Source: Candidatus Omnitrophota bacterium
GTDB taxonomy: Bacteria > Omnitrophota > Omnitrophia > Omnitrophales > Aquincolibacteriaceae
NCBI GenBank assembly: GCA_016196545.1
Contig: JACPXM010000007.1
Location: 1 to 44,074, forward strand
DNA: 44,074 nucleotides
Direction: 5' to 3'
Shown: positions 25,619-43,742 of the stretch, in pieces
Numbering within the stretch: the first letter of the stretch is position 1
How the letters are laid out: each line of letters begins with the position of its first letter
Notes under the pieces: generated by a model
What the model saw: the letters and a program-made list of their open reading frames with translations, nothing else
Told to the model about the DNA's origin: nothing
The model's database searches: none
Position numbers and translations under genes: made by a program

Positions 25619-27505
25619 TTATTTTCTCGGGCTTTGATAATAAACGTTACCCACAAAAAAGGGGCCAAGCGACTGCATATACCGTGCGGTTTGCTGGGTC
25701 TTTCGCATGGCTTCGACCAGCTTGGACAAATAATGAAGCTCGGGACCGACAAGGCCCAGCACAAATTCATTGTCCCGCGCGTCCAAGCCGTAACAGGCAA
25801 GGCGAAGGTCCGCGGCATAACCTGCCTGACCGAAATTGCGGCCAATCATAGCATGCTCCCACAAAATTTTATCCTGTTCCGCTTTGGAAAGGAGCGCGAA
25901 TTCTGGCTTGCGGCGAAGAGGATACCAAATCGCCCAGGGCCAATCAGGATTCAGGGCCGTGCGTCTCGGTTTCTGAAGCAGCCAGTCTTCCAGGGCCGCT
26001 TCCCGGCCTGCCGCATAAGTTCTTCCGAACATCGTTAGCTCGGCTTTAGGAGTCAAATTTTCAAAGGGTGGTTGCTGAAAAAGTTTTCGTACCTCACGAG
26101 TGAACATTTCGGGATTTTCCGAAAGAATCAAGGCGCCGACACCGTACGGATCATTCACATCCGCATAGAGCACTCCTTCAAGACCCGAGGCTTGAAAGGT
26201 TTTTGCCAAGGAATCCACATTCCTGCAGCCTGTAAAACATTGCAGCTGAAAATAAAGCCGCCTGTCCAGGGCTTGAATCACGCCCGATTTCGGCTGTCCG
26301 GTTTCACGCAAATCCCGTGAGTCCCCTTGATAATAGAGGTCGCGGTCCGGGACAATCTCCCAGCGCCTCGCAACTTCGGAAAGTTCCTGTGTCAACGGCC
26401 ATTGATCCGCCTGAGGTTTTCCTGAATATTGCGTCGTGGCTCCCTTTAAAGACATTGAATTCCGATTATCACCGATTTTTGTGATGGCCTCAACGATGTC
26501 GCGCGGCAACGGAGGTGCCAGGGAAAGTTTGACCAGCTCCTCAAGTTCGATTTCAACCGGTTTGGCGTCCGGTCCCGCCTCTTGAACCAAGGTCGGGATC
26601 ACGCAATCCACAGCAGGCTGAGCGAGCGTCCAGCGCGAGGCAAGTTGCAAAAGCGTCATCGGAAATTCGCGCGCGGTTTCACGCATTTTCTCTGCCTTCG
26701 GAAGCGCAGTTTCAATCCAGCCCTCGGGCCGAAAGGCGCGATGATCCTGACGGCTGAGTTTATGGCCCGGTTTTAAATCGCCGTGAAAGATGCCGCCAGA
26801 GTCCACGACACGCGCGATGACTTTGACTGCAAATTTTTCCGCGGCAGGAAGCGAGAGCATTCCAGGCCACGGCTCCAGTGGATTTAAAATAATCATGGCC
26901 CAATCGATTAAATCATGAAATTTTTCAAAACATTGAATGAGATCCAACGCAAAACCGTTGGCCGGACCCGGGGCAAGGCCGAGTCGATGCGTAATCCCCT
27001 GTTTTTTGAGCGATTCCAGGCCTTTCCAAACGGCCTCGCCCGTATATCCCGTAAAGTCGGGATTATGAAGAAGCAGCAAGTCAAAATAGGCCGTACCCAG
27101 TCTTTCAAGGGATTTTCCGGAGGCCATCGCAAGAAAATTTGCGTATTCATTTTCAGGACGAAGATTTGGGTCCGTAAAACGCGGAAAACCTTTTTCTGCC
27201 TGGCGCTTTCCTTTGTAGAAATCATGTCCAATGAGTCCAATAAGGCAATAACTTGAGCGCGGATAACCGCCCAGGGCTTTTCCCATCAACTTATCCGCTT
27301 CCCCCTCACCGTAAACATCGGCGGACATAAACGTGCGAATGCCACTTTCATAAGCACGTTGGATGAGCCTTAGGAGCCGCAATTCGCCGATATCTTCGCC
27401 GAAATTCATGAAATGGCCGCCAGACCAGATGCCGAAGGCGGCTTCACCCGGCTCAAGGCCTTTGATTTCAGTTTTCTGAGAAATGTTTTTTAACTGGGTA
27501 GGCAT
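25619..27505 (-). CDS. Aldo/keto reductase fused to a chlorite-dismutase / coproheme-decarboxylase (Cld/ChdC) family domain
   Basis: N-terminal ADVYGEG..D, SLERLGT.YFDLLLLHNPD, QLA.RW.L AKR motifs; C-terminal WYPLRR...EHAMIGR...YGLD...MRKT...GPFFVG. Confidence 0.8.
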   Translation of the reverse strand: MPTQLKNISQKTEIKGLEPGEAAFGIWSGGHFMNFGEDIGELRLLRLIQRAYESGIRTFMSADVYGEGEADKLMGKALGGYPRSSYCLIGLIGHDFYKGKRQAEKGFPRFTDPNLRPENEYANFLAMASGKSLERLGTAYFDLLLLHNPDFTGYTGEAVWKGLESLKKQGITHRLGLAPGPANGFALDLIQCFEKFHDLIDWAMIILNPLEPWPGMLSLPAAEKFAVKVIARVVDSGGIFHGDLKPGHKLSRQDHRAFRPEGWIETALPKAEKMRETAREFPMTLLQLASRWTLAQPAVDCVIPTLVQEAGPDAKPVEIELEELVKLSLAPPLPRDIVEAITKIGDNRNSMSLKGATTQYSGKPQADQWPLTQELSEVARRWEIVPDRDLYYQGDSRDLRETGQPKSGVIQALDRRLYFQLQCFTGCRNVDSLAKTFQASGLEGVLYADVNDPYGVGALILSENPEMFTREVRKLFQQPPFENLTPKAELTMFGRTYAAGREAALEDWLLQKPRRTALNPDWPWAIWYPLRRKPEFALLSKAEQDKILWEHAMIGRNFGQAGYAADLRLACYGLDARDNEFVLGLVGPELHYLSKLVEAMRKTQQTARYMQSLGPFFVGNVYYQSPRK

Positions 27506-28349: not shown

Positions 28350-29189
28350 TTAAGCCACCGGGTTGGGATTTTGGGCCACCTCCAGCCCCGAGTACACAAG
28401 CCACGGGGTTTTGTAATCCAGCGATTGATGATGCCGCTGCAAGTTGTAGAAATCGAAGTATTCTTTGAGCCCCGCCTCAGCGTCCGGAATTGTTTCATAG
28501 CCTTTCAGGTAAACATTTTCGTATTTAACGCTGCGCCACAATCTTTCCACAAAAATGTTGTCCAGCGCGCGGCCGCGGCCGTCCATACTGATTTTGATGC
28601 CACGATTCAAAAGCACTCGCGTGAATTCCTCGCTCGTGAACTGGCTGCCCTGGTCCGTGTTGAAAATCTCTGGTGTCGCATACCCAAGCGCCTCTTTCAA
28701 AGCTTCCACGCAAAAATCGCTGGTTAGCGTGTTAGAAATTTTCCAAGCGAGCACATACCGGCTTTTCCAATCCATCACGGCCGCCAAATACACGAATCCC
28801 TGCCGAAGCTTGATGTAGGTAATATCCATGCTCCAGACTTGGTTGGTGCGATTGACATTCACTCCGCGGAGCAAATACGGATATACCGGATGACCGGGAT
28901 GCGGCTTTGAGGTGTTTCTCTTGGGAAATATCGCCTCAAGGCCCATCAAACGCATCAACCGGCCCGCGCGTTTGCGGCCCACAAAAGACCCGCGGCTTTT
29001 GAGCTCACGCGACATTCTTCGGGCACCGTAAAACGGCCACTTCGTGTAAATCTCGTCGATCAGATTCATCACCGCCTGATCTTCGGGACTTACCGGCATC
29101 GGCTCGTAATAAAAACCAGAGCGGCTGCAAAAAAGCAGCTCACACTGACGCCTCACACTCACAGGAGATGATTCCTCACGCTCAATCAA
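28350..29189 (-). CDS. IS3 transposase OrfB (DDE domain)
   Basis: WSMDITYI, NTDQGSQFTS, DNIFVERLWRSVKYE. Confidence 0.95.
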   Translation of the reverse strand: MIEREESSPVSVRRQCELLFCSRSGFYYEPMPVSPEDQAVMNLIDEIYTKWPFYGARRMSRELKSRGSFVGRKRAGRLMRLMGLEAIFPKRNTSKPHPGHPVYPYLLRGVNVNRTNQVWSMDITYIKLRQGFVYLAAVMDWKSRYVLAWKISNTLTSDFCVEALKEALGYATPEIFNTDQGSQFTSEEFTRVLLNRGIKISMDGRGRALDNIFVERLWRSVKYENVYLKGYETIPDAEAGLKEYFDFYNLQRHHQSLDYKTPWLVYSGLEVAQNPNPVA

Positions 29190-33607: not shown

Positions 33608-33661
33608 GCCCCTTAAACTATCAAAAAATGACGTGTTTCTCCACGTAAAATATTTTTGAGA

Positions 33662-34039
33662 TCAGGCGGCTTGAGGACGCATCGCTTTCACGATCGCTTC
33701 TTGGAGATCTTCCATCGTCACGGGCTTCATCAAAACTATATCCGCTTGAGGAGCCGTATCTTCCGTTATGGTTCCGGAAAGCATGATCACGGGCAATTTA
33801 GGATTCAATTTTTTGATCCGTAGGACGAGTTCATCTCCCGTCATGAAGGGAAGCGCGCGGTCCGCGATGATCAAATCATAATTCCCTCTATTCCCTTGAA
33901 ATTTTTCGAAGGCTTCAAGGCCCGTATCTGCGGTTTCCACTTTATGGCCGCCGCGCTCCAGAAACATCACGATGATGTCACGCACATGCGGATTGTCCTC
34001 CACATAAAGAATCCGGTGTTTCTCGCTCCCAGGGACCAT
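33662..34039 (-). CDS. Single-domain response regulator (CheY-like receiver)
   Basis: ILYVEDN, LIIAD..LP, IMLSG, KP; start ATG 34039 just after the kinase stop. Confidence 0.85.
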   Translation of the reverse strand: MVPGSEKHRILYVEDNPHVRDIIVMFLERGGHKVETADTGLEAFEKFQGNRGNYDLIIADRALPFMTGDELVLRIKKLNPKLPVIMLSGTITEDTAPQADIVLMKPVTMEDLQEAIVKAMRPQAA

Positions 34040-34043
34040 CGCT

Positions 34044-34892
34044 TTAGGAACTTTCTCTTTCTCGATCGTCCGATCGAGAAAATGAAATTGAAAAGGTTGT
34101 CCCTTTATTTTTTTCGCTTTGAATAAGCACGGACCCTCCATGCCTTTGAATTACACCGTAGACAACAGAAAGTCCCAGTCCCGAACCGCTATCCCCTTTG
34201 GTCGTAAAAAAAGGTTCCCAGCATCGCCTTTTCACTTCTTCATCCATTCCGATACCTTGGTCGCAAACTTCAAGCACAACTTCGTACGCATTGGCATAAG
34301 TCCTAAGCATCAATTCCCCACCTTGGGGCATAGCATCCACGGCATTAAAGATAAGATTGGTAAGGACTTCACGGAGCTGGACGTCGTCGCCTTCAATCAA
34401 GGGAATATCCCCCAGCTCCTTTCGAACGGTGATCTGCGCTCCCTTAACGAGCGCCTGACTTTTCCATTTAGGCTGCGTTAAGGAGATCATCTCTTCAATC
34501 ATGGGATTTAAATGAACCGACGTAAAGGGTTCGTTTTGCTCCCGGGTGTAGAAAAAATCCCGAAGCCTCTTGACAATCCCTGCGGCGTGGCGCGCAGCGG
34601 CATTCATGATCTGCAAAAATTGAAGCAGCGTTTTGCGATCTTCACGCGCCTGGGGATCCTTTAAAAGAAGCTCGCTATAACCCAAAATCGGCGACAGCGC
34701 ATTATTGAAATCGTGGACAATACCGCTTGCCATTTGGCCGAGGGCACGAAGCCGCTCCTGCTGAACAAGCTGGTATTGTGTCTTACGGAGTTCTTCAAGT
34801 GCCTTTTCAAGCTGTTGGGTTCTTTCCGATATTTTTTTTTCGAATTCGGCCTTGACCTTTTCAACATTTTCTTGCGATCCTGAAAAACTCAT
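34044..34892 (-). CDS. Cytoplasmic histidine kinase without a sensor domain
   Basis: Coiled coil, H-box GIVHDFNNAL, NLIFNAVDAM, DQGIGM, PFFTTK, GSGLGLS; RBS AAGGAAGG. Confidence 0.9.
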   Translation of the reverse strand: MSFSGSQENVEKVKAEFEKKISERTQQLEKALEELRKTQYQLVQQERLRALGQMASGIVHDFNNALSPILGYSELLLKDPQAREDRKTLLQFLQIMNAAARHAAGIVKRLRDFFYTREQNEPFTSVHLNPMIEEMISLTQPKWKSQALVKGAQITVRKELGDIPLIEGDDVQLREVLTNLIFNAVDAMPQGGELMLRTYANAYEVVLEVCDQGIGMDEEVKRRCWEPFFTTKGDSGSGLGLSVVYGVIQRHGGSVLIQSEKNKGTTFSISFSRSDDRERESS

Positions 34893-34933
34893 AGCTTTCC
34901 TTCCTTGACACACCTTAACTTAATGTTCTGTAG

Positions 34934-34948
34934 TCAATTTTTGTGCCA
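34934..34948 (-). promoter_or_regulatory. Possible sigma54 promoter
   Basis: TGGCAC-AAAAA-TTGA about 42 nt upstream of the kinase start; -12 box is TTGA instead of TTGC. Confidence 0.5.
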
Positions 34949-35034
34949 ATTGAACAGCAGCGAAGAATTTTAGAGAGAAGAAAATAGGGAGGAGTTTTGC
35001 CGCGGGTTTTTAGCTGACTTTAAAACTGTGCAAA

Positions 35035-36789
35035 TCAAACCAATGAGGCATTTCTAGGTTGAAATTCATTTTTTAATTTTTGCGGTTGAGAGACGGGTAA
35101 ATCAACCAAAAAAAGCGTGCCTTTGTCCGCCCTGCTGATGACGGAAATATTTCCTGCATGATTTTCCACAATTTTTTTTGCAATGGCCAGGCCCAGCCCC
35201 ATGCCGCCGTGTTTGGTGGTAAAAAAGGGTTTAAATATCTCATGAACTTGATGCGCGGGAATACCGGAACCGGTATCGCGAACTGAAATACGCACCTGCG
35301 AAATTTCGGAATTACAATCGGATTTGAGCAACAAGATTCCCCCTTGGGGCATGGCTTGAATCGCATTTTGAATCAGATTTTCAAAGAGCTCGTACAATTG
35401 ATCGCGATCCCCTTCAACTCCAGGACAATACGGTACCGTTTCCACCTTGAAAACGATCCCTAAGCGACCGGCAGTTTCCGCGTAGCGTTCCCGCAGCGAT
35501 TCAAAAATAGTTTCCAAACTTAATTCCTCGAGGTCTGATTTTTTAGGAGCTGCGATTTGCGACAGGCTATTGAAAATCTTCTCCAAATTTTCAATCGCTG
35601 CTGAAAATTCTTTTTCAAAGCGCTGGATAAAAATTGGATCCGTCTTACGCTCTGGAAGAAGCTGGGAAAAGGTCTTAAGCGCTACAATGGAATTTTTAAA
35701 CTTGTGGGAAATGGTGGTTGCGGCCGCGCCAATAGCCGCCAAATGTTCCCGTTCGCGAGCCCTCTTTAAACGCCGGCTCATTTGCTTGAACCGCAAAAAA
35801 AGCCGACCCAACTCATCGGAGGATTTGGGAGGAATTTCGAAATCAAAATCGCCAACCGCGACGCGCCGGCTCCAGGCTTGTAATTCCCGAACAGGCTGAA
35901 CCATCATTTTTGCAAGTCGGAAACTGACCAAAATAGAAAGAATCAAGGAAACAAAAATAACAGACCAAATGAGAAATTTCATAGGGCGCATGAATTCATA
36001 AGCCTCTCGAGTCTCAATCTGAAGACCCACAAATAAGGGCAAAGGGCCTTTCACGGGCGCATAGGAAACCAAGTTATCGTTTTTTCTCCACGTTCTCTCG
36101 TGAAAAATTTCTTGGGTGGGTAAAACCGTATTTTTTAAAACAAGTCTGCGGTCCGGATGAGCCACCAAAAGACCTTCTTTTGTCACCAAAAAAGCTCGGC
36201 CGGTACGGCCTATTTGAATACCGTCCACGATTTCCCAAAGTCCTCTCAGATTCACTTGAGCCATCAACACTCCCGCAATCTCCCCTTTGAATTGATAAGG
36301 AAAGGCCACGGAAAAATGCGGCAGATAATTATCGCTGATATAAACCGAGGATACAGAGGTACGGCCGTGTCGCGCTTCCCGGAAAATTTTTTCACGGTTG
36401 TATTTCTTTTTAGGATACCCAGGATTGGAGGAAGCAATTTCCTCGCCTTTTAAATTTAAGGAAAGAATTTCTTCGAAAAAAGGGTATTCCAGCGACAATT
36501 CCACCAAAAGGGTTTCCTGGTCCCATGCACTTGACCCCGTTCTCCCCAGAAGTTGGCCTGCGGTTTTTAAAAGTTCTACAGGCCGCGCTATAAATAAAGA
36601 GATTTCCCGCGCCGCACGGACAGCAATAGCCTGATGACTTTCCTGGATGTTGGCCTTTAGAACACGCGCCGAAATTTGATTGAGCGTGATCCCTAAAAGG
36701 GAAAGCAATCCGATCACTAGAAGGCAGATGACAAGCGCCAGTTTGACCGCAATTTTTTGAGGTATTAATTTTCTGAGAAACTGAATCAT
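35035..36789 (-). CDS. Membrane sensor histidine kinase (TM - Cache-like - TM - HAMP - HisKA - HATPase) with atypical H-box
   Basis: Two TMs around a periplasmic region with G.AFLV...G.LVAHPD; HAMP DELGRL; H-box SHKFKNS; NAIQAM, DTGSGI, PFFTTK, GLGL. Confidence 0.88.
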   Translation of the reverse strand: MIQFLRKLIPQKIAVKLALVICLLVIGLLSLLGITLNQISARVLKANIQESHQAIAVRAAREISLFIARPVELLKTAGQLLGRTGSSAWDQETLLVELSLEYPFFEEILSLNLKGEEIASSNPGYPKKKYNREKIFREARHGRTSVSSVYISDNYLPHFSVAFPYQFKGEIAGVLMAQVNLRGLWEIVDGIQIGRTGRAFLVTKEGLLVAHPDRRLVLKNTVLPTQEIFHERTWRKNDNLVSYAPVKGPLPLFVGLQIETREAYEFMRPMKFLIWSVIFVSLILSILVSFRLAKMMVQPVRELQAWSRRVAVGDFDFEIPPKSSDELGRLFLRFKQMSRRLKRAREREHLAAIGAAATTISHKFKNSIVALKTFSQLLPERKTDPIFIQRFEKEFSAAIENLEKIFNSLSQIAAPKKSDLEELSLETIFESLRERYAETAGRLGIVFKVETVPYCPGVEGDRDQLYELFENLIQNAIQAMPQGGILLLKSDCNSEISQVRISVRDTGSGIPAHQVHEIFKPFFTTKHGGMGLGLAIAKKIVENHAGNISVISRADKGTLFLVDLPVSQPQKLKNEFQPRNASLV

Positions 36790-36801
36790 AAAGGGTTTTT
36801 A

Positions 36802-36816
36802 TCAAAAAGCATGCCA
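36802..36816 (-). promoter_or_regulatory. Possible sigma54 promoter
   Basis: TGGCAT-GCTTT-TTGA 13 nt upstream of ATG 36789. Confidence 0.4.
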
Positions 36817-36847
36817 AAAAAATGGCCGCGGCGCTTATGCCGCGGCC
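36816..36847 (-). terminator. Intrinsic terminator after the radical SAM gene
   Basis: GGCCGCGGC-ATAAGC-GCCGCGGCC followed by ATTTTTTT on the minus strand. Confidence 0.85.
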
Positions 36848-36881
36848 TATATTACTCTTTAAATGGAATCGGGGAAAGTTC

Positions 36882-38255
36882 TTAAACGGTGAGGGCGGGC
36901 TGCTTTTCTCGCTCCCTTTTCTTGGCCATCAGCTGCTCGTATTTGATTTTAATGTAATCGTGAATTGTTTTATCGAAGAAATCCCTTTCACAAAAGACAT
37001 TTTTGTAGCTTCCAGTTTGAAGTTCCGCATGATAATTACACCCGCCCGCACAAAAAGGCACGTATTGGCAATCCTGGCATTTGCCCTTCCACTCGACAAG
37101 GTCAAACGACATGAAATCCTTATAGCGATCGTTCAGTTTTAGATCGGAAACATTCCCGCAAGATTTATCATAATGCCCCACCATGGCAGGACATTTAAAA
37201 ATCACGCCGTCGGGATCAATAATGACTTGGTGTTCGCCCGATTTGAAGTGGCATACGCCTCCCCCGTCGAGAGACCTTGAAGTGGCAAAACCGCGTCGCA
37301 TGAGCTCCTTTTTAATCTGAATCATTTTTTCACCATGGCCTGGGTCGCAGGCATAAGTGGCAACCGCTTGAGAGTCATGCGGCATGGGATCGCGACGTTC
37401 GGTAATGGGCTTGAAATCAATCATTGCGATTTTTTCTTTTAAGCCTTCGGCTTCAAAAAAATCTAAAAGTTTGTAAAGGCTTTCGTAACTATGGGTGTTG
37501 AAATTGCTCGCCAAAATGACTTTGGTTTTATGCGCCACGGCCTTGATATTCCGTATGAGAATGTCAAAACTCCCTTTTCCGCTGATAAAAGGACGGTATT
37601 GGTCGTGTTGCTCTTTATCCCCGTCCAGGGTAATCCGAAGGCTTTTAAGCCCCCAGCCATTGAGCCGATCCACTAAAGCCTCTGTCACAAGAGATCCATT
37701 GGTAATAATATTGAATTCAAAATGCCAGGGGGTCGTGGCGGTCCACTCATGCATTTCGCGAGCAATGTATTCCAACATCGGGACATTCAAAAGGGGTTCG
37801 CCTCCGTAGAAAACAATTTCTATTTTTTCCGGATTGACCTCCATAGCTTTGTTTTTTAACCATAACACGATTTCCTGGGCCTTTTCTTGACTCATGAACC
37901 TTTTCTGCTCTTTCACCTTGCCTTCGAAGCAATAAGGACAGGCAAAATTACAAAAATAAGTGGTCAGAACATAGGCCTCCAGTTTTTTCGAATTGTAACG
38001 GATCGTTTCGAACCAATCTCGCATAATGTCGAGTTCATCAGCATCATCGCGCAACGTAATCCCCATTTCCTCAAGCTTGGTAAGAATGGGACGCGCCTCT
38101 TCAGCGACAGCGGTAACCGCTACGGGCATTTCGCGGAGCAGGGACCGTATGGCATCGTTGAGAACCAGCAGAGCCTGCGTGCGGGTATTGTAGGCTAAAT
38201 GTTTTCCAGGTTGGGGATAATCATCGACAATAATGGTGAACTGAGAAATTTTCAT
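36882..38255 (-). CDS. Radical SAM/SPASM peptide maturase with N-terminal extension (probable RRE)
   Basis: CNFACPYC, FYGGEPLLN, ITNG, ITLDG; SPASM C...DPDG.IFKCP...C..C....FC.GGC...C; ~90-aa N-terminal domain (AYNTRT...LEEMGI). Confidence 0.92.
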   Translation of the reverse strand: MKISQFTIIVDDYPQPGKHLAYNTRTQALLVLNDAIRSLLREMPVAVTAVAEEARPILTKLEEMGITLRDDADELDIMRDWFETIRYNSKKLEAYVLTTYFCNFACPYCFEGKVKEQKRFMSQEKAQEIVLWLKNKAMEVNPEKIEIVFYGGEPLLNVPMLEYIAREMHEWTATTPWHFEFNIITNGSLVTEALVDRLNGWGLKSLRITLDGDKEQHDQYRPFISGKGSFDILIRNIKAVAHKTKVILASNFNTHSYESLYKLLDFFEAEGLKEKIAMIDFKPITERRDPMPHDSQAVATYACDPGHGEKMIQIKKELMRRGFATSRSLDGGGVCHFKSGEHQVIIDPDGVIFKCPAMVGHYDKSCGNVSDLKLNDRYKDFMSFDLVEWKGKCQDCQYVPFCAGGCNYHAELQTGSYKNVFCERDFFDKTIHDYIKIKYEQLMAKKREREKQPALTV

Positions 38256-38304
38256 AAGGAACGCTCCAATTTTTTAGACGCGTGGGAGGATTTATTAATA
38301 TTCC

Positions 38305-38332
38305 AAACGGGCTGCGAATAAGCAGCCCGTTT
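38305..38332 (-). terminator. Stable hairpin between precursor and maturase (weak terminator or mRNA stabiliser)
   Basis: AAACGGGCTGC-TTATTC-GCAGCCCGTTT, starting 7-8 nt after the peptide stop; only 3 U follow. Confidence 0.7.
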
Positions 38333-38339
38333 TCTTCAT

Positions 38340-38438
38340 CTACTCTGGGAATCCAACAAACCAAATATCCGACACACAACAGTTAGTGACAATTCCTTTC
38401 GCATCTTTTGCAGTGTCAATAACCACGATATCTTCCAT
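38340..38438 (-). CDS. 32-aa putative RiPP precursor MEDIVVIDTAKDAKGIVTNCCVSDIWFVGFPE
   Basis: Strong SD AAAGGGGGTGAT just before ATG 38438; sits in the gap between the SBP stop and the rSAM gene; leader/core composition. Confidence 0.85.
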   Translation of the reverse strand: MEDIVVIDTAKDAKGIVTNCCVSDIWFVGFPE

Positions 38439-38463
38439 CCCATCACCCCCTTTCCACTCAGAT

Positions 38464-40011
38464 TTACTCTTGCTTATATAATTTTCTAAGAAGATAAAAT
38501 GGGATGAAGGGACCGAAAAAATTATCCGCAGGAATAATATCCTTGGAGGAGGCGTGAAACGAGTAGGGAATATAAAGAAAAACAGCGGGAATATCCTTCG
38601 CAATCGTTTCCTGCAATTGATGATAAGTGATTTTCCGCTCCTCCCGGTCATTCATTCTTCGTGCCGCCTCAAAACCTTTTGAAACCTCCGGATTTTCATA
38701 ATTTCCCAAATTAAACGATCCCCCCGGAAAATAATGACTGACAACATCGGGATCCGGATCCATATTATTAAATGTCGTTAAGAAAATTTGGAAAGGAGCA
38801 TTTGGCTGATAGACTTGGGAATGAAGCTCCTTGTAATCGGAAAACGTATGAATTTTAAGAGAGATTCCGATTTCTTGAAGCTGCTGGCGAATCAGTTTGG
38901 CCATCCGCATCAAATGCTCGTTTTCTGAACTTACCAAAAGATTCAAGTCTAATCCCGAAACACCTTCCTCCTTGAGCAGCCTCGCGGCACTTTCTGCAGG
39001 ATGCCTCTGAACACGAATATTCGAAGAATAAGCCCAAGAGGCAGGGTGGAAGGGACCCTCAATCAGAATGCCCTGATCGCCTTCAAGCTTGTTCCGCATT
39101 TCATCACAGTTAATGGCCAAACGAATGGCTTCGCGAAGATTTCTTTTTTTTAACCGTTCATCCTTAAAATTAAATAAAAGCATATACCCGCCCGGAGCCA
39201 GTGAAGTAAAAACATGAAAGGAGGAATTCTCCCGAATTTCTTGAAAATCATCGCGGTCCAGATAAAAAACCAAATCTACATCTCCACGAAGAAAAGCGGA
39301 CCATACGTGCTTCTTTGAAGAAAATATCTGGACACTGACTTGATTCAAATAGGGCCTGCCTTCAAAATAATTTAAATACGCCCTGAGACGCATGGAACCA
39401 TTACTCTCCTCACCCTCAAAAATAAACGGGCCCGTCCCAATGGGTGATTTTGCAATGACATTTAAATCATCTTTCGTGTGAATCAATTGATTCTTGGGAA
39501 CAATGCTGACGCGCCATATTGAAACTAAAAAGGGGGAAAAAGGCTCTTTCAGTATGGCCTGAAAAACATAGCGTGAAGGAATCTTCCATTCTTTGACACG
39601 GTCAAACTGTTTTGAAAACGCGGGACTAATGTTTTTATCGCTCATAAGCCGGAAGCTATGCAATACATCCTCAGAGGTGCATTCCTGACCGTTGTGAAAC
39701 TTTACGCCGCTGCGCAGGTAAAAGGTATAGGTTAAACCATCCTTTGAAATTTCCCAACGTTGCGCCAAATCCGGTTCGAATTCTCCGGAGGGTGAAACTC
39801 GGACTAGTTTGTTAAAAATTAAATCCATCAAGGGCGCGGAAATGGTGTCGGTGACGTTAAACGGGTCGAGGGGTGCAGGCTTTTGATGTGTGCCTAAATA
39901 AAGGGTGCCTCCGTAGCGCGGCTTTGGCGACGAGACGGCGGAAGGCGCTGCATATGCGGGCTGCACGGCCGCTGAAGCAATCATGAGACCTGCCAACAAA
40001 ACCCCCTTCAC
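38464..40011 (-). CDS. Family-5 (Opp/Dpp/Nik-type) periplasmic solute-binding protein, no cognate permease nearby
   Basis: EPDLA.RW.IS.DG.TYTF.LR.GVKFHNG, PIGTGPF; signal peptide from GTG 40011 (MKGVLLAGLMIASAAVQPAYA). Confidence 0.88.
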   Translation of the reverse strand: MKGVLLAGLMIASAAVQPAYAAPSAVSSPKPRYGGTLYLGTHQKPAPLDPFNVTDTISAPLMDLIFNKLVRVSPSGEFEPDLAQRWEISKDGLTYTFYLRSGVKFHNGQECTSEDVLHSFRLMSDKNISPAFSKQFDRVKEWKIPSRYVFQAILKEPFSPFLVSIWRVSIVPKNQLIHTKDDLNVIAKSPIGTGPFIFEGEESNGSMRLRAYLNYFEGRPYLNQVSVQIFSSKKHVWSAFLRGDVDLVFYLDRDDFQEIRENSSFHVFTSLAPGGYMLLFNFKDERLKKRNLREAIRLAINCDEMRNKLEGDQGILIEGPFHPASWAYSSNIRVQRHPAESAARLLKEEGVSGLDLNLLVSSENEHLMRMAKLIRQQLQEIGISLKIHTFSDYKELHSQVYQPNAPFQIFLTTFNNMDPDPDVVSHYFPGGSFNLGNYENPEVSKGFEAARRMNDREERKITYHQLQETIAKDIPAVFLYIPYSFHASSKDIIPADNFFGPFIPFYLLRKLYKQE

Positions 40012-40058
40012 AGGGAAAAAAACCTTGGCATAAAAAGCACGAAATCCAAAGGGCGTTG

Positions 40059-40073
40059 GCAATGTCTGTGCCA
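40059..40073 (-). promoter_or_regulatory. sigma54 -24/-12 promoter of the SBP-precursor-rSAM operon
   Basis: TGGCAC-AGACA-TTGC, exact consensus TGGCAC-N5-TTGC. Confidence 0.85.
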
Positions 40074-40113
40074 TTGAATATTTTAAAAGAGCGCAATCAA
40101 TCATAACGTTGAA

Positions 40114-40126
40114 TAAAGCTTTGATT
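40114..40126 (-). promoter_or_regulatory. IHF-like binding site
   Basis: AATCAAAGCTTTA matches WATCAANNNNTTR and lies between the sigma54 promoter and the candidate enhancer. Confidence 0.55.
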
Positions 40127-40196
40127 TTAAAAGGAAAAATAATAAGACTAAGATAAATAACAAATCGAATCGAGGAAAATTAAAATCAAACACTCG

Positions 40197-40232
40197 TGCA
40201 CAATATTCGGGATTTGTCGAGACTCTTGTGCA
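40197..40232. promoter_or_regulatory. Candidate upstream activator (enhancer) sequence
   Basis: Inverted repeat TGCACAA-N22-TTGTGCA about 125-160 bp upstream of the -24 box; NtrC-like half-sites. Confidence 0.45.
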
Positions 40233-40235
40233 GGA

Positions 40236-42173
40236 TCAAAAACCATACTTCGCTCCGGCTTCAAAATTCCTTTCTGGATTAGGGTCCCGACTGCCGTCAA
40301 AGGAAAAGTCGTGATTGAAGAGGTTCTCCCCTTCGACAAATACGGAAAATCGGCCATACAGGATTTTGGGGAATTTAAGAACCGCCTTGCTATCAAAAAT
40401 GAATGCCTGATCCTTGGGATTCGTAAATCCCGCGTATTGAACCAAATCCGTATAACGACCAGCAAGATGGAGATTTAGAATCATTCCCCAGAATGCCTTG
40501 GAGTAATTGAGTTTAATGTCCTGAGTAAAGCGAGGCCGGCTTTGCAAGGGTCCGGCCGAACCCGGCTCTACGGCTAAGACATACATTGTGCCATAGGAAC
40601 CGGAAATTCCTTGCCAGGGGCCAAGCCCAATTTCGGTTTCGAAACCTGTTCGTCTTTCCTCATCAATATTGACGGGCTGCCTAAGGCCATCGGAGCGGAC
40701 AATGGTTTGAATGCTATCTTCGAGAAAAGTCTGAAAAAATACGGCTTTCCCGAGAATTCCATTACGGGGTTCGGTCTCAAAGCCAAAATTGTAGACAATG
40801 GCCTTCTCAGCCTCCAAATCGGGATTTGCAACAGTCGTCGCTGCGCTTAGATATCGATCCACTAAGGAAGGCGCATTAAACGCCCGTGAAACATTACCCC
40901 GTAACAAGCTCCTCCAAAAAGGCAGATGATAAACAAGCCCTGCACTTGGATCAAAATAGGTGCCGTAACTGTTGGTCGCATCGAGGCGGGATCCGAGTGT
41001 GGCATCCCAATTTTTCCAGGAAAGCTGATAATTGATAAAATAGCCTTGGCGCGTGCTTTCTTTATTGACATTAAACGGGCTCGTGGCTGCCCGGAAAACC
41101 GCGTCCCGGTATACTTCCACGCCGATATCAGCTCCCGTCACGAGGGTCTGGGATTCGGTGATGTCCCATATATTCTTCACAGAGGCTTCATGAATCATGC
41201 TGCGCGCCTTCGCAACTTGAAAAAAAGTGTAGCGCGGCAAAAGCAACGTATCGCGGCGGAAAGTTCTTTCCGATAATTTATAAAAAAATTCTGAATACAC
41301 ATTTCCGCCATGCTCCATCACAAGCCCTGCGCTGCCATAACGCGAATAGACCTTTCTTTTTGCAGAAAGATTCAAATCGGGCAAATCAAATTCGCTTACC
41401 TTAGAACCGGAGTATCCGAAGGATCCCTTTAGAGAAAGTCCTTCAATCCCGGGAATCGTAACTTCGCTTTTTAAAAATCCCCTCTTCTCCAGCTCATCGC
41501 TATTCGGACGAAAGCCCCCGGCCTCGGTATAACTTCCCATGCCGTAATAACCCAGAGGCCCGGCCGAGCCCCAAATTTCCCCTTTCTCACGCTGAGTGCC
41601 AAATTCTCCAAAGCTGAGAGTGGTTTCTCCCTTCGGCATCAAGGATTTTCCAACAGGCCTCGTAATAACGTTAATGACTCCGCCCATGGCCGAACCCCAA
41701 ACACTTGAGGACGCTCCCTTAATCACTTCGATTTTCTCCACAATTTCGAGTGGAATCTGAGACAAATCCGCAATGCCTCCCGTAGTGGTTGCATTAAAGG
41801 TAATGCCATCCACCATCACGCGCACTTCACGCGCCTTGGAGCCATAAATTTGAGCCGTGGCGTTTTGTCCAATGTGTCCGTCATCTTGAACCACAATGCC
41901 GTTAATCAATCCAAGTGCTTCATCCAAATCCTGAACGGGCCAGCGGTCAAGTTCTTCACGGGTCACCACCGTCACATGATCCGTCACTTGAGGAAGGGCT
42001 TGGAGGCTTCGTGTGGAACTAAAAAAGGAATCCTTAGAATACAGAAAATCCGACTGAGAGGATAAGACTTCCGAAGGCGGACTGGATAAAACGCGGCGAT
42101 CACTATGGGCCATGAGAGGAGGAATTAAAAGAAATAGGAGCGGGAGTGAAAAGAACAAAAACCGGTACATCAA
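40236..42173 (-). CDS. TonB-dependent outer-membrane receptor (BtuB/CirA-like size)
   Basis: Signal peptide; plug VTVVTREEL...VMVDG...IEVIKGASSSVWGSAMGGVINVIT; NPDLEAE; ENLFN...C-terminal YGF; start overlaps the activator stop. Confidence 0.92.
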   Translation of the reverse strand: MMYRFLFFSLPLLFLLIPPLMAHSDRRVLSSPPSEVLSSQSDFLYSKDSFFSSTRSLQALPQVTDHVTVVTREELDRWPVQDLDEALGLINGIVVQDDGHIGQNATAQIYGSKAREVRVMVDGITFNATTTGGIADLSQIPLEIVEKIEVIKGASSSVWGSAMGGVINVITRPVGKSLMPKGETTLSFGEFGTQREKGEIWGSAGPLGYYGMGSYTEAGGFRPNSDELEKRGFLKSEVTIPGIEGLSLKGSFGYSGSKVSEFDLPDLNLSAKRKVYSRYGSAGLVMEHGGNVYSEFFYKLSERTFRRDTLLLPRYTFFQVAKARSMIHEASVKNIWDITESQTLVTGADIGVEVYRDAVFRAATSPFNVNKESTRQGYFINYQLSWKNWDATLGSRLDATNSYGTYFDPSAGLVYHLPFWRSLLRGNVSRAFNAPSLVDRYLSAATTVANPDLEAEKAIVYNFGFETEPRNGILGKAVFFQTFLEDSIQTIVRSDGLRQPVNIDEERRTGFETEIGLGPWQGISGSYGTMYVLAVEPGSAGPLQSRPRFTQDIKLNYSKAFWGMILNLHLAGRYTDLVQYAGFTNPKDQAFIFDSKAVLKFPKILYGRFSVFVEGENLFNHDFSFDGSRDPNPERNFEAGAKYGF

Positions 42174-43570
42174 ACTAAGGATTTGTGATCGCTGGATTGC
42201 TTGAGCTGCTTTACATCGATTTGTAGCGCATCTAATTTAGCAAGGAGTGTATTCCGGTGAATGCCCAAAATCTCGGCGGCCTTACTCTGATTCCATTCAG
42301 AATATTCGAGGATATTTAAGATCACCTTGCGTTCATAATCATCCAAAATTTCCTTAAAGGAAAAAGGTTCACGGTATTCGGTAAACTCGCCTCGCGGCAC
42401 GGCTAAGTCGAGAGGTAAATGGGCCTTTTGGATGCAGGGTCCCTCCATTAAAACCACAGCCCGTTCCACAACATTTTTGAGCTCGCGGATATTACCGGGC
42501 CAGTTGTAATCCTGCAATGTCGATTTGGCCTCTTCAGAAAACCCGCTTGCGGGTTTGTTAAATTTTTTTGAAAATTGGCGCAAGTAATGCTCCGCTAAAA
42601 TCAAAATATCCCCTTGGCGATCCCGAAGCGGCGGCAAATGGATATGGACCACTTTTACGCGATAATAGAGGTCTTCACGAAACTGACCGGTTTCCACCAT
42701 TTTTCGCAAATTGCCATTGGTCGCTGCCACAATGCGAACATCAATCGGAAGAACCTTAATGCTACCCACCCTCTCAATTTCCTGCTCCTGAAGGACTCGC
42801 AGCAATTTTACCTGAAGGGTCTCCTTCATGGCTGAAATTTCATCGAGAAATAAAGTCCCGCCTTGGGCCATTTCAAACTTTCCAATTTTTCGCTCCAAGG
42901 CCCCCGTGAAAGCCCCCCGTTCATGCCCAAAGAGCTCGCTTTCCAGCAAATTTTCAGGAATGGCGCCGCAATTAATGGCTTTGAAGGGGCGGTTTTTTCG
43001 CGAGGACTGATAATGAATCGCTCGAGCCACGAGCTCTTTGCCCGTTCCACTTTCGCCGGTAATAAGGACAGTGCTGTCTGTCAAGGCAACCTTGGAAATT
43101 ATTTTTAGAATTTCCTTTAATTTCGGATCCCGGCCCACCATGGGATGGCTATCGTCGAGCTGCTGGACATCATCACGCAGGGAGACGATTTCTTCGGCCA
43201 TGGATTTTTTCTCAAGCACACGGCGGGTCATCAGAAGAATTTCGTCTTTATCGAAGGGTTTCGTAATGTAGTGAAACGCACCTAACTCCATGGCACGCAT
43301 GGCCGAACGCGCCTTGTCATCCGCCGTAAGCATGACCACGTCGACGGTAGGATCGAGGGCTTTGATTTGTCGCAATACTTCAAAACCATCGAGTTCCGGA
43401 AGAGTAATGTCGAGAAATACTAAATCGACGGGCTCAGACCTCAATCGCGAAAGGGCATCGCGGCCGTCCTTGGCAACTACCAGCTCAAAACTATCACCGA
43501 GTAATAAATCGAGGGAATCAACGGTCGGCTTTTCATCATCGACTATCAGAATTCGGCGCTTTTTTTTCAA
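42170..43570 (-). CDS. sigma54-dependent response regulator (NtrC/AtoC family: REC-AAA+-HTH)
   Basis: ILIVDDE, LD..LP, GESGTGKE, ESELFGHERGAFTGA, FLDEI, WPGNIREL, NQSKAAEILGIHRNTL. Confidence 0.95.
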   Translation of the reverse strand: MKKKRRILIVDDEKPTVDSLDLLLGDSFELVVAKDGRDALSRLRSEPVDLVFLDITLPELDGFEVLRQIKALDPTVDVVMLTADDKARSAMRAMELGAFHYITKPFDKDEILLMTRRVLEKKSMAEEIVSLRDDVQQLDDSHPMVGRDPKLKEILKIISKVALTDSTVLITGESGTGKELVARAIHYQSSRKNRPFKAINCGAIPENLLESELFGHERGAFTGALERKIGKFEMAQGGTLFLDEISAMKETLQVKLLRVLQEQEIERVGSIKVLPIDVRIVAATNGNLRKMVETGQFREDLYYRVKVVHIHLPPLRDRQGDILILAEHYLRQFSKKFNKPASGFSEEAKSTLQDYNWPGNIRELKNVVERAVVLMEGPCIQKAHLPLDLAVPRGEFTEYREPFSFKEILDDYERKVILNILEYSEWNQSKAAEILGIHRNTLLAKLDALQIDVKQLKQSSDHKSLV

Positions 43571-43667
43571 AGGGGGAGTGATCCTTTTCTGCTAGTTCGA
43601 ATTATCAATTAGGGCATCATCATAGAGGGACCTGGCAGTTAAGGCAATCTTATTTTTAGGAAGGCTG

Positions 43668-43742
43668 TCGGGGTGGAGTGATTTGAACACTCGACATCTT
43701 GCTCCCAAAGCAAGCGCTCTAGCCAGGCTGAGCTACACCCCG
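43668..43742 (-). tRNA. tRNA-Pro (TGG), CCA not encoded
   Basis: CGGGGTG-TAGCTCAGCCTGGCTAGAGC-G-CTTGC-TTTGGGA-GCAAG...GTTCAAATC...CACCCCG-A cloverleaf. Confidence 0.96.

What the first reader, a model, noticed from the sequence alone, without database searches (positions are those of the whole stretch)
33662..43570. Candidate RiPP-based signalling / autoinduction circuit in a diderm bacterium
Seen: one co-oriented block of sigma54 activator, TonB-dependent receptor, consensus sigma54 promoter, orphan family-5 SBP, 32-aa precursor, rSAM/SPASM maturase, Cache-type sensor kinase, sensor-less kinase and receiver. No protease, exporter, permease or immunity gene lies inside it. Known: rSAM/SPASM enzymes cross-link adjacent short peptides, family-5 SBPs bind peptides, and SBPs can relay ligands to sensor kinases. 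Inference: a modified peptide is imported by the TBDR, bound by the SBP, sensed by the kinase, and activates the sigma54 promoter driving its own synthesis (quorum-sensing-like loop). A peptide metallophore is an alternative. From memory, the acidic leader plus CC and the maturase N-terminus recall the uncharacterised TIGRFAM 'geopeptide' families; this is unverified.
Basis: partly seen in the sequence, partly recalled or inferred. Interest (0 to 1): 0.92.

Follow-up and report, generated by a model that had tools for sequence, protein, structure and literature searches.

The report
Geopeptide-like peptide cassette with uptake and sensing genes
A groundwater Omnitrophota bacterium carries a small modified-peptide gene set that, across several phyla, always travels with its own outer-membrane importer, periplasmic binding protein and sensor kinase, which suggests a self-made peptide that the cell takes back up and senses.

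Summary
On the minus strand of 33662-43570 lie an NtrC-type sigma54 activator, a TonB-dependent receptor (TBDR), a TGGCAC-N5-TTGC promoter, the genome's only family-5 SBP, a 32-aa Cys-Cys precursor, a CteB-like radical SAM/SPASM maturase, a dCache-HAMP kinase, a sensor-less kinase and a receiver.

TIGR04280 is the maturase's best family, but at 308.7 bits it is under the 400-bit cut-off. The precursor does not hit TIGR04229. In a tree the maturase falls outside the curated geopeptide clade.

The key new result is the neighbourhood test. Of 39 loci with related maturases and at least 5 kb on both flanks, 38 carry a TBDR. All 39 carry one periplasmic SBP: 22 family-5 (21 of them with a dCache kinase) and 17 PF04392-type. 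None of 14 outgroup loci carries a TBDR, an SBP or a sensor kinase.

Fifty-four of 69 loci have a short Cys-Cys peptide next to the maturase. The SBP has no Opp/Dpp-type importer in three genomes searched, two of them 94% complete.

Best reading (0.45): a self-made peptide is re-imported and sensed in the periplasm, giving sigma54-driven autoinduction. Main rival (0.3): a methanobactin-style metallophore. The chemistry and the function are untested. No paper on this system was found.

The parts
42170..43570 (-). NtrC-type sigma54 enhancer-binding response regulator (REC, AAA+ with GAFTGA, HTH_8). Its stop overlaps the TBDR start.
   Evidence: Sigma54_activat 243 bits, Response_reg 95.5, HTH_8 47.5. 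Orthologs lie beside the cassette in 18 of 39 full-flank loci.
40236..42173 (-). TonB-dependent outer-membrane receptor (645 aa, Plug + 22-strand-type barrel, no signalling extension found).
   Evidence: Plug 71 bits, barrel 96 bits. The nearest solved structure is BtuB (1.4e-20). A TBDR is adjacent in 38 of 39 full-flank family loci and in 0 of 14 outgroup loci.
40194..40235 (.). Imperfect inverted repeat (GTGCACAAT-type arms) about 120-160 bp upstream of the promoter. Candidate activator binding site (inferred).
   Evidence: arms 40194-40208 and 40221-40235, 15 nt each, 80% complementary. L033 has a GTGCACAAT palindrome in the same intergenic region. Not tested further.
40058..40073 (-). Sigma54-type -24/-12 promoter, TGGCAC-N5-TTGC.
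   Evidence: The same motif sits at the SBP gene start in L027, L029, L031, L033, L036 and L058, and before the precursor in L062. rpoN is present in the genome.
38464..40011 (-). Orphan family-5 periplasmic solute-binding protein. Probable GTG start at 40011; the longest ORF reaches 40104.
   Evidence: SBP_bac_5 234 bits, nearest solved structure AppA (4.2e-39). It is the only SBP_bac_5 in the assembly. No Opp/Dpp-type permease or ATPase was found.
38340..38438 (-). 32-aa precursor MEDIVVIDTAKDAKGIVTNCCVSDIWFVGFPE, with the invariant Cys-Cys at residues 20-21.
   Evidence: A homologous short ORF lies next to the maturase in 54 of 69 family loci. M1, C20 and C21 are invariant in a 31-sequence alignment.
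38305..38332 (-). 11-bp stem-loop just after the precursor stop, with no U-tract. Probably a transcript-stabilising or attenuating hairpin.
   Evidence: -29.2 kcal/mol, z -4.24, 0 of 200 shuffles as good. A comparable hairpin (z <= -2.5) occurs in 29 of 39 relatives tested.
36882..38255 (-). Radical SAM/SPASM peptide maturase with an N-terminal RRE-like domain (CteB-like architecture).
   Evidence: TIGR04280 at 308.7 bits (cut-off 400); invariant cysteines C102, C106, C109 (CX3CX2C), C335, C355, C396, C402, C406 and C422, i.e. the C-terminal Cys motif; model pLDDT 84.9, best fold match 5wgg (CteB), TM 0.69/0.71 over 468 columns.
36824..36847 (-). Strong intrinsic terminator (9 G-C pairs plus a T-run) between the maturase and the kinase, where many relatives carry an ABC exporter gene.
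   Evidence: The junction is confirmed by a 2611-nt metagenome contig with 0 differences (record 3).
35035..36789 (-). Membrane sensor histidine kinase: TM, periplasmic dCache_1, TM, HAMP, DHp (H362), HATPase.
   Evidence: A dCache sensor is present in 21 of 22 full-flank SBP5-type loci and in 0 of 17 PF04392-type loci. The kinase is directly followed by the sigma54 activator in L056 and L058.
34044..34913 (-). Soluble, sensor-less histidine kinase (coiled coil, HisKA, HATPase). The likelier start is the ATG at 34892, behind an AAGGAAGGAAAG ribosome-binding site.
   Evidence: It is only 32% identical to the hybrid kinase at the same place in L027, so membership in the system is uncertain.
33662..34141 (-). 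Single-domain receiver. Probable start is the ATG at 34039, 5 nt after the kinase stop.
   Evidence: Extra single-domain receivers recur in related loci: a REC cluster is present in 27 loci. A terminator-like site follows at 33631-33646.

Best explanation
This is a geopeptide-like RiPP cassette coupled to a dedicated uptake-and-sensing loop. Steps marked (inferred) are not shown by any search.

1. The 32-aa precursor is bound through its leader by the N-terminal RRE-like domain of the CteB-like radical SAM/SPASM enzyme.
2. The enzyme modifies it at or next to the invariant Cys-Cys, most likely with a thioether cross-link (inferred from the enzyme's nearest families).
3. The product leaves the cell. 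Relatives use an ABC exporter; here the route is unknown.
4. It is pulled back across the outer membrane by the adjacent TonB-dependent receptor (inferred).
5. It is captured in the periplasm by the orphan family-5 SBP, which has no inner-membrane importer to hand it to.
6. The SBP presents it to the periplasmic dCache domain of the kinase (inferred).
7. The kinase phosphorylates the NtrC-type activator, which opens the sigma54 promoter in front of SBP-precursor-maturase.

More peptide therefore makes more peptide and more sensor: an autoinduction, quorum-sensing-like circuit in a diderm.
For: Shown by calls:

(1) Gene content and order.

(2) Neighbourhood test. After dropping 4 duplicates, 96 loci were examined. 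The family was defined only by maturase score (at least 170 bits to the window's enzyme, plus the split L103), giving 69 loci, 39 of them with at least 5 kb on both flanks.
- TBDR: 38 of 39.
- One SBP: 39 of 39 (22 family-5, 17 PF04392-type, 0 with both).
- dCache sensor: 21 of the 22 SBP5 loci, 0 of the other 17.
- Sigma54 activator or REC-AraC regulator: 29 of 39.
- Outgroup: 0 of 14 for each of these.

(3) Two non-homologous SBP types, each with its own Cache-type kinase (PF04392 + sCache_4-HAMP kinase + activator in L094 and L100). This argues that 'periplasmic binder plus kinase' is the selected function.

(4) Orphan SBP.
- It is the only SBP_bac_5 in G000.
- The genome's BPD_transp_1 permeases are Pst- and Ugp/Mal-like.
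- No oligo_HPY ATPase was found in G000, G323, G157 or G215.
- The cassette SBP is the sole family-5 SBP in G070, G323 and G157.

(5) Sigma54 promoter at the same position in 6 of 10 SBP5-type loci with the activator, and in L036. It is at the SBP start in 0 of 12 loci that carry only the REC-AraC regulator. rpoN is present.

(6) The kinase is directly followed by the activator in L056, L058 and L094.

(7) No other gene family recurs in the neighbourhoods except receiver-domain proteins.

(8) The conserved precursor and the hairpin after it.

(9) Maturase fold and nearest families are Cys-targeting thioether formers: CteB, TIGR04280, CefB, PapB, QhpD and SCIFF maturases.

(10) Predicted complex of SBP(22-515) with dCache(38-270): weak support only.
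- Score 0.60; best of 3 controls 0.00.
- The mark was reached by 58 of 80 solved complexes and 2 of 110 mismatched pairs.
- At 0.60 or under it was reached by only 7 of those 80, and by both mismatches that passed.
- The runs agree in at least 94% of contacts, and the partner's pLDDT is at least 80.

From established knowledge (recalled): SBPs relay ligands to kinases in LuxP-LuxQ and TorT-TorS, and LuxO is a sigma54 activator in a quorum-sensing circuit.
Against: - No exporter lies in the window, and the assembly holds no close ortholog of the relatives' exporter. The best hit is 33% identical, and the assembly is only 72% complete.
- No leader protease occurs in any locus.
- TonB itself was not found. 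ExbD sits at a contig end.
- The same layout (TBDR + OppA-like orphan binder + RiPP + ligand-responsive regulation) serves copper uptake in methanobactin systems.
- Two adjacent thiols would suit soft-metal binding.
- 15 of 69 family loci showed no Cys-Cys ORF. Five of these have almost no upstream flank. Seven form the basal L065/66/67/69/72/76/79 groups. The other three are L040, L091 and L094.
- L028, L066 and L067 have the activator but no motif at up to 1 mismatch.
- The complex prediction is weak.
- There are no expression data.
- The kin are not independent, so the counts overstate the number of independent events.
Confidence: 0.45

Rival explanations
1. Peptide metallophore (chalkophore or nickelophore-like). 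The Cys-Cys peptide, modified by the rSAM enzyme, is secreted and chelates a scarce soft metal (Cu, Ni, Co, Zn) in anoxic, sulfidic groundwater. The complex returns through the TBDR and is held by the SBP. The Cache kinase senses the loaded complex and induces the system, as Pseudomonas PfeS/PfeR does for ferric enterobactin (recalled).
For: - Methanobactin systems use a TBDR (MbnT) and an OppA/AppA-like periplasmic binder (MbnE) with no known inner-membrane step (passages of PMC7558416).
- The SBP's best NCBIfam hits are nickel and metallophore binders: Opp5A_nikA 145.8 bits, NikA 134.4, CntA 93.5.
- The TBDR's nearest relatives carry metal cofactors and siderophores: BtuB, CirA.
- Only the two cysteines are invariant while the rest of the core drifts, as in methanobactins (the comparison is recalled).
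- The carriers are anaerobes of groundwater and sediment.
Against: - No metal-responsive regulator, reductase, metal transporter or inner-membrane importer recurs in 69 loci.
- No Opp/Nik-type importer exists anywhere in two 94%-complete carriers.
- All SBP family scores are far below the cut-offs, and AppA (a peptide binder) is the best solved relative. MbnE is not among the 60 best shown.
- If the enzyme makes thioethers from both cysteines, no free thiol is left.
- The neighbourhoods are rich in two-component genes rather than metal genes.
Confidence: 0.3
2. The cell takes up and senses the peptide for another purpose. The peptide could be a cue from kin or from a host, or a scavenged public good. 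In this genome, which lacks the exporter, the cassette would work mainly as a listener, or the peptide would act inside the periplasm or cell.
For: - The exporter is missing here and in 9 of 22 full-flank SBP5-type loci.
- A strong terminator separates the maturase from the kinase.
- The distribution is patchy: 25 of 401 genomes of the phylum including the window's own, and 1 of 65 in its own family. This fits an accessory, exchangeable trait.
- Omnitrophota are described as host-dependent (passages).
Against: - The precursor and maturase are intact and sit behind a conserved promoter, so the peptide is probably still made.
- Nothing in the data points to a specific alternative use.
Confidence: 0.15
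3. Chance adjacency. An ordinary RiPP cluster happens to lie beside unrelated transport and two-component genes.
For: - The promoter motif alone is within chance.
- HK2 and the receiver are poorly conserved relative to L027.
Against: The same partners recur in 38-39 of 39 full-flank loci across at least seven phyla and in 0 of 14 outgroup loci.
Confidence: 0.02

Closest known systems
Geopeptide system (NCBIfam TIGR04229 precursor + TIGR04280 radical SAM maturase), curated as hypothetical, from Geobacter and relatives
   Same: - Best-scoring family for the maturase, aligned over its full length.
- A short leader followed by an invariant Cys-Cys in the precursor.
- An adjacent TBDR, a periplasmic SBP, a Cache-type kinase and a sigma54 activator.
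   Different: - The maturase scores 308.7 bits against a cut-off of 400. True members score 548-654.
- The precursor has no hit at E <= 10.
- The window lies outside the fully supported (SH-aLRT 100) 27-row geopeptide clade.
- It uses a family-5 SBP with a dCache kinase in place of a PF04392 SBP with an sCache_4 kinase.
- Its core is CCxxD-type, not CC(T/A/S)-rich.
CteB and other thioether-forming rSAM/SPASM maturases (SCIFF/ranthipeptides, PapB, QhpD)
   Same: - Best sequence match (5wgg, 1.1e-20) and best fold match (TM 0.69/0.71).
- The RRE-rSAM-SPASM architecture.
- A Cys-containing substrate.
- The window's CC-V-S-D spacing resembles PapB's Cys-X3-Asp motif (recalled, not tested).
   Different: - About 20% identity.
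- All family scores are below cut-off.
- The substrate has only two cysteines, and they are adjacent.
- The chemistry is untested.
- Those systems are mostly from Gram-positives and lack the TBDR, SBP and kinase partners.
Methanobactin operons (MbnA precursor, MbnT TBDR, MbnE OppA-like binder, MbnM exporter)
   Same: - A RiPP with essential cysteines.
- A dedicated TBDR.
- An orphan OppA/AppA-like periplasmic binder.
- An exporter in many relatives.
- Ligand-responsive regulation.
   Different: - No MbnB/MbnC-type enzyme; a radical SAM enzyme takes its place.
- Regulation by a two-component system and sigma54, rather than by a sigma/anti-sigma pair (the Mbn regulators are recalled).
- MbnE is not among the 60 best solved relatives of the SBP that were shown.
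SBP-dependent two-component and quorum-sensing circuits (LuxP-LuxQ-LuxO, TorT-TorS); recalled
   Same: - A periplasmic binder with no transporter, paired with a membrane kinase.
- A sigma54 activator as the output. LuxO scores 352.7 bits against the window's activator, far under its 800-bit cut-off.
   Different: - The signal would be a ribosomal peptite product too large for porins, needing a TBDR.
- The binder and kinase sensor domains belong to other families.

Membership tests
TIGR04280 geopeptide radical SAM maturase | Score at or above the curated cut-off (400 bits) | tested here: not met
   308.7 bits, best family, residues 1-436 on profile positions 1-422 of 428. Controls: L086 654, L089 646, L100 629, L094 548; Planctomycetota L058 308.
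TIGR04280 geopeptide radical SAM maturase | Placement inside the clade of curated members | tested here: not met
   (quick tree, SH-aLRT): the PF04392-type (geopeptide) rows form a 27-row clade with support 100. The window groups with L027 (100), L028 (95) and L062 (90) outside it. The whole 66-row family is held together at 93.
TIGR04229 geopeptide precursor | Score at or above the cut-off (30 bits) | tested here: not met
   no hit at E <= 10 for either reading frame candidate. Relatives: L045 20.6 bits; L089 32.7, L093 35.1, L086 27.1.
TIGR04229 geopeptide precursor | Short leader followed by an invariant Cys-Cys, encoded next to the maturase | tested here: met
   C20 and C21 are invariant in 31 aligned precursors. 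The ORF ends 84 nt before the maturase start.
Radical SAM/SPASM RiPP maturase | CX3CX2C radical SAM cluster motif | tested here: met
   C102, C106 and C109 are invariant in 14 sequences. Pfam Radical_SAM 66 bits.
Radical SAM/SPASM RiPP maturase | C-terminal auxiliary-cluster cysteine motif (SPASM) and fold | tested here: met
   C335, C355, C396, C402, C406 and C422 are invariant; full-length fold match to CteB 5wgg and TigE 8vpo. The Pfam SPASM model itself did not hit at E <= 0.01.
Radical SAM/SPASM RiPP maturase | N-terminal leader-recognition (RRE) domain | tested here: inconclusive
   residues 1-87 model as three strands and three helices at pLDDT 83-96. The CteB alignment spans the whole length. 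No RRE-specific model was run.
Ranthipeptide / sactipeptide (thioether RiPP) | Cys sulfur to carbon cross-link in the product | not testable with these tools
   Supported only by homology to thioether formers.
Sigma54-dependent operon with NtrC-type activator | GG-N10-GC promoter, activator with GAFTGA, and rpoN in the genome | tested here: met
   Searches (TGGCAC-N5-TTGC; GAFTGA in the translation), and (Sigma54_DBD 187 bits on contig C50). Activity is untested.
TonB-dependent transporter | Plug and barrel, with the energising TonB-ExbBD present | tested here: inconclusive
   Plug and barrel are met. ExbD was found at the end of contig C25. TonB_C was not found in the 72%-complete assembly.
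Methanobactin-type chalkophore operon | MbnB/MbnC (DUF692-type) biosynthetic pair | tested here: not met
   none of the eight cluster proteins hits such a family. The TBDR plus OppA-like binder feature is met (for the comparison).
Peptide autoinducer (quorum-sensing) circuit | The extracellular peptide accumulates and induces its own operon through the kinase | not testable with these tools
   Only the wiring is seen. No RNA data are available.

The most novel reading that the evidence does not exclude
A widespread, undescribed kind of cell-to-cell signalling in anaerobic diderm bacteria (Omnitrophota, Planctomycetota, Spirochaetota, Auribacterota, Myxococcota, Nitrospirota, Geobacter relatives). 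A radical-SAM-modified Cys-Cys peptide too large for porins is actively imported by its own TonB-dependent receptor. It is read in the periplasm by an orphan binding protein docked on a Cache kinase, and this drives sigma54- or AraC-type autoinduction.
Probability: 0.4. Interest if true: 0.88.

Novelty: new variant of a known kind. Interest (0 to 1): 0.78.

Why it matters
- Ribosomal peptide signals are textbook for Gram-positive bacteria but rare in diderms, because peptides do not cross the outer membrane freely. A cassette that couples a modified peptide to its own energised importer and a periplasmic sensor would show how diderms can solve this.
- It would give a function to the "geopeptide" families, which have been curated as hypothetical for years.
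- If the product is instead a metallophore, it would be a second, radical-SAM-based route to peptide metal carriers, in uncultured groundwater phyla.
- Either way the system is directly testable. The true geopeptide version occurs in cultured Geomonas and Geomesophilobacter strains.

Tried and rejected
- **Antibiotic or bacteriocin reading.** Set aside, because a producer would not keep a dedicated importer for its own toxin and no immunity gene recurs.
- **SBP serving a distant Opp/Dpp importer.** The three BPD_transp_1 loci of G000 are Pst (two) and Ugp/Mal-like. No oligo_HPY hit in G000, G323, G157 or G215. G357 has a separate Opp-like operon about 560 kb away.
- **HK2 and the receiver as remnants of L027's hybrid kinase.** Only 31-32% identity, so unresolved.
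- **Other conserved partners** (protease, metal transporter). None found. The single large cluster is receiver-domain proteins, and the rest is local synteny of close Nitrospirota.
- **Variant sigma54-like motifs TGGCAY-N5-TTGA** upstream of both kinases. The pattern was written after seeing the two sites, so its statistic is circular. It is not conserved in L027. Kept only as a note.
- **Expression.** No RNA holder listed.
- **Literature.** 'geopeptide' 0 papers. 'TIGR04280' 0. 'radical SAM + RiPP + TonB-dependent + Geobacter' 0. 'radical SAM + SPASM + TonB-dependent receptor + precursor peptide' 2 papers held, 1 listed, on streptococci (listing only). 'RaS-RiPP + Geobacter' 0. 'Omnitrophota + radical SAM + peptide' 7 papers held, 6 listed. 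Passages of one were unrelated and the others were seen as a listing only. Supplements are closed, and subscription papers are not searched, so a description elsewhere cannot be excluded.
- **Chen et al. 2020** on ranthipeptides in clostridial quorum sensing was seen only as a reference-list entry.
- **Tree.** The careful tree search did not finish. The quick tree is reported. Seven of the 96 loci, those with maturase ORFs under 380 aa, were left out of the tree.
- **Hairpin test.** It used mononucleotide shuffles and skipped loci with under 40 nt of spacer.

Full report
**What is there.** The window is the whole 44,074-base contig C2 of a 1.2-Mb, 57-contig assembly that is 72% complete. The assembly belongs to Candidatus Omnitrophota: locus L055 is the same contig as G050's, and its public title names the phylum. 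All parts of the finding lie on the minus strand. Pfam and NCBIfam give the following.
- REC / Sigma54_activat / HTH_8 activator, 42170-43570. GAFTGA is visible in the translation.
- TonB-dependent receptor, 40236-42173.
- Family-5 SBP, 38464-40104.
- Radical SAM enzyme, 36882-38255.
- dCache_1-HAMP-HATPase kinase, 35035-36789.
- HisKA-HATPase kinase without a sensor, 34044-34913.
- Receiver, 33662-34141.
- The 32-aa ORF, 38340-38438, follows a strong ribosome-binding site.
- The motif TGGCACagacaTTGCC, 40058-40073, lies inside the longest SBP ORF. The SBP therefore probably starts at the GTG at 40011, which yields a signal-peptide-like N-terminus.

Further features:
- An 11-bp hairpin follows the precursor (z -4.24).
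- A strong terminator, 36824-36847, separates the maturase from the kinase. Another terminator-like site follows the receiver.
- The rest of the window holds RecN, an SDR, an IS3-type transposase, DsbD, a Liv transporter, a NirB-like reductase and a molybdopterin oxidoreductase. None looks connected.

**Is the geopeptide recall right?** Partly.
- TIGR04280 is the maturase's best family, aligned end to end, but at 308.7 bits against a cut-off of 400.
- The precursor hits nothing, even at E <= 10.
- Genuine members from Desulfuromonadales and Nitrospirota score 548-654 bits. Their peptides score 27-35 bits against the cut-off of 30.
- In a quick maximum-likelihood tree of 90 maturases, the curated type forms a 27-row clade (support 100). 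The window lies outside it with two Omnitrophota and an Auribacterota sequence. All 66 family rows hold together at 93.
- The window is therefore a sister lineage, not a member.

**The enzyme.**
- CX3CX2C and the C-terminal cysteine motif are invariant in 14 sequences.
- The AlphaFold model (pLDDT 84.9) matches CteB, the SCIFF thioether synthase, over its full length (TM 0.69/0.71). TigE, SuiB and anSME follow.
- By sequence the best solved relative is also CteB.
- The next NCBIfam hits are all maturases of Cys-rich peptides.
- A thioether at the Cys-Cys site is thus the likeliest chemistry, but this is inference.

**The precursor family.**
- A short ORF with a leader of the type E-I-I-x-x-G and an invariant Cys-Cys lies next to the maturase in 54 of 69 family loci.
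- In 31 aligned peptides only M1, C20 and C21 are invariant.
- Fifteen loci showed none. Five of these have almost no upstream flank. Seven form the basal groups L065/66/67/69/72/76/79, which may use another substrate. The other three are L040, L091 and L094.
- A hairpin after the stop codon (z <= -2.5) occurs in 29 of 39 relatives tested.

**The neighbourhood test.**
- I collected 20 loci from the phylum and 80 from all prokaryote species representatives.
- I dropped 4 duplicates and scored all ORFs with the window's proteins plus four locus proteins.
- Groups were defined by maturase score alone.
- Among 39 family loci with at least 5 kb on both sides:
  - 38 have a TBDR.
  - All 39 have one periplasmic SBP: 22 family-5, 17 PF04392-type, never both.
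  - 21 of the 22 SBP5 loci have a dCache kinase, and 0 of the other 17 do.
  - 18 have a sigma54 activator and 13 a REC-AraC regulator.
  - 13 have an ABC exporter between the maturase and the kinase.
- Among 14 outgroup loci none has a TBDR, an SBP, a sensor kinase or either regulator. Four have an exporter.
- The PF04392 loci carry an sCache_4-HAMP kinase followed directly by the activator.
- No other family recurs except receiver-domain proteins.
- The carriers span Omnitrophota, Planctomycetota, Spirochaetota (no TBDR seen in 3 short loci), Auribacterota, Myxococcota, Nitrospirota and Thermodesulfobacteriota.
- Within the phylum the maturase is patchy: 25 of 401 genomes including the window's own, and 1 of 65 in its own family.
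- Related genomes are not independent, so these counts show a stable association, not 39 separate events.

**The orphan binder.**
- The cassette SBP is the only SBP_bac_5 in the assembly.
- The assembly's BPD_transp_1 permeases are phosphate- and sugar-type.
- No oligo_HPY ATPase is found in G000, G323, G157 or G215.
- In G070, G323 and G157 (all 94% complete) the cassette SBP is the sole family-5 SBP.
- G357 has a separate Opp-like operon far away.
- The SBP's solved relatives are peptide and opine binders first (AppA, HbpA, DppA), with NikA lower.
- A predicted complex of the SBP with the kinase's dCache domain gave weak support only: score 0.60, best of 3 controls 0.00. The mark was reached by 58 of 80 solved complexes and 2 of 110 mismatches, but at 0.60 or under by only 7 of those 80 and by both mismatches. 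Contact agreement is at least 94% and the partner's pLDDT at least 80.

**Regulation.**
- Taken alone the promoter motif is within chance.
- It recurs at the SBP start in L027 and L033 (perfect), and in L029, L031, L036 and L058. It lies just before the precursor in L062.
- That is 6 of the 10 SBP5-type loci with the activator. It is at that place in none of the 12 loci that carry only the REC-AraC regulator.
- L028, L066 and L067 have the activator but no motif.
- rpoN is present.
- An inverted repeat, 40194-40235, is a candidate activator site.
- In L056, L058 and L094 the kinase gene is followed directly by the activator gene. This supports their pairing.

**What is particular to this genome.**
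- The exporter gene found in the closest relative (maturase 70% identical) is absent. The best exporter-like gene elsewhere is 33% identical.
- An independent metagenome contig spans the maturase-kinase junction without a difference.
- No TonB_C was found, but ExbD sits at a contig end.

**Reading.**
- A producer that keeps an importer and a sensor for its own product is typical of autoinducers and of metallophores, not of antibiotics.
- For a signal: the binder has nowhere to deliver its ligand, two unrelated binder-kinase pairs were recruited, and the neighbourhoods hold signalling genes and no metal genes.
- For a metallophore: the methanobactin layout is the same, the only invariant residues are two thiols, and the SBP and TBDR lean toward metal-complex relatives in NCBIfam.
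- I put autoinduction at 0.45 and a metallophore at 0.30.

**Novelty.**
- The curated geopeptide models show that the precursor-maturase pair was noticed before.
- I found no paper on it or on its link to uptake and sensing genes.

Noticed in passing
window 43667-43742 (-): tRNA-Pro(TGG) lies directly upstream of the sigma54 activator. Metagenome contigs of other organisms diverge at its edges (loose ends). With the patchy distribution of the cassette this may mark an island boundary.
   Followed up: partly
window 34934-34948 (-) and 36802-36816 (-): There are exactly two matches to TGGCAY-N5-TTGA in the whole window. Both are on the coding strand, just upstream of the two kinase genes (expected 0.27). 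They are possible weak sigma54 promoters. The pattern was chosen after seeing the sites, and it is not conserved in L027.
   Followed up: partly
L027 8884-10368 (G070, closest relative): The maturase of the closest relative is interrupted by one in-frame TAA and reads as two ORFs. Its dCache kinase contains a run of N. This is either a pseudogene or an assembly flaw.
   Followed up: no
window 28350-29189 (-): IS3-family transposase (rve, HTH_21, rve_3), about 4.5 kb from the end of the cassette.
   Followed up: no
window 25619-27505 (-): A 628-aa protein that combines an aldo/keto reductase domain with a C-terminal chlorite-dismutase-like domain. This is an unusual fusion.
   Followed up: no
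L094 11249-11920 (+): The Nitrospirota locus L094 carries a SAM-dependent methyltransferase right after the maturase. The phmmer scan with it found no other locus above threshold.
   Followed up: partly
L098 7841-17539: The cultured Geomesophilobacter sediminis carries two TBDR-maturase cassettes in tandem on one contig.
   Followed up: no
L065 3586-8643: Three family-5 SBP genes lie in tandem after the maturase in an unclassified MAG. No Cys-Cys precursor was found there.
   Followed up: no
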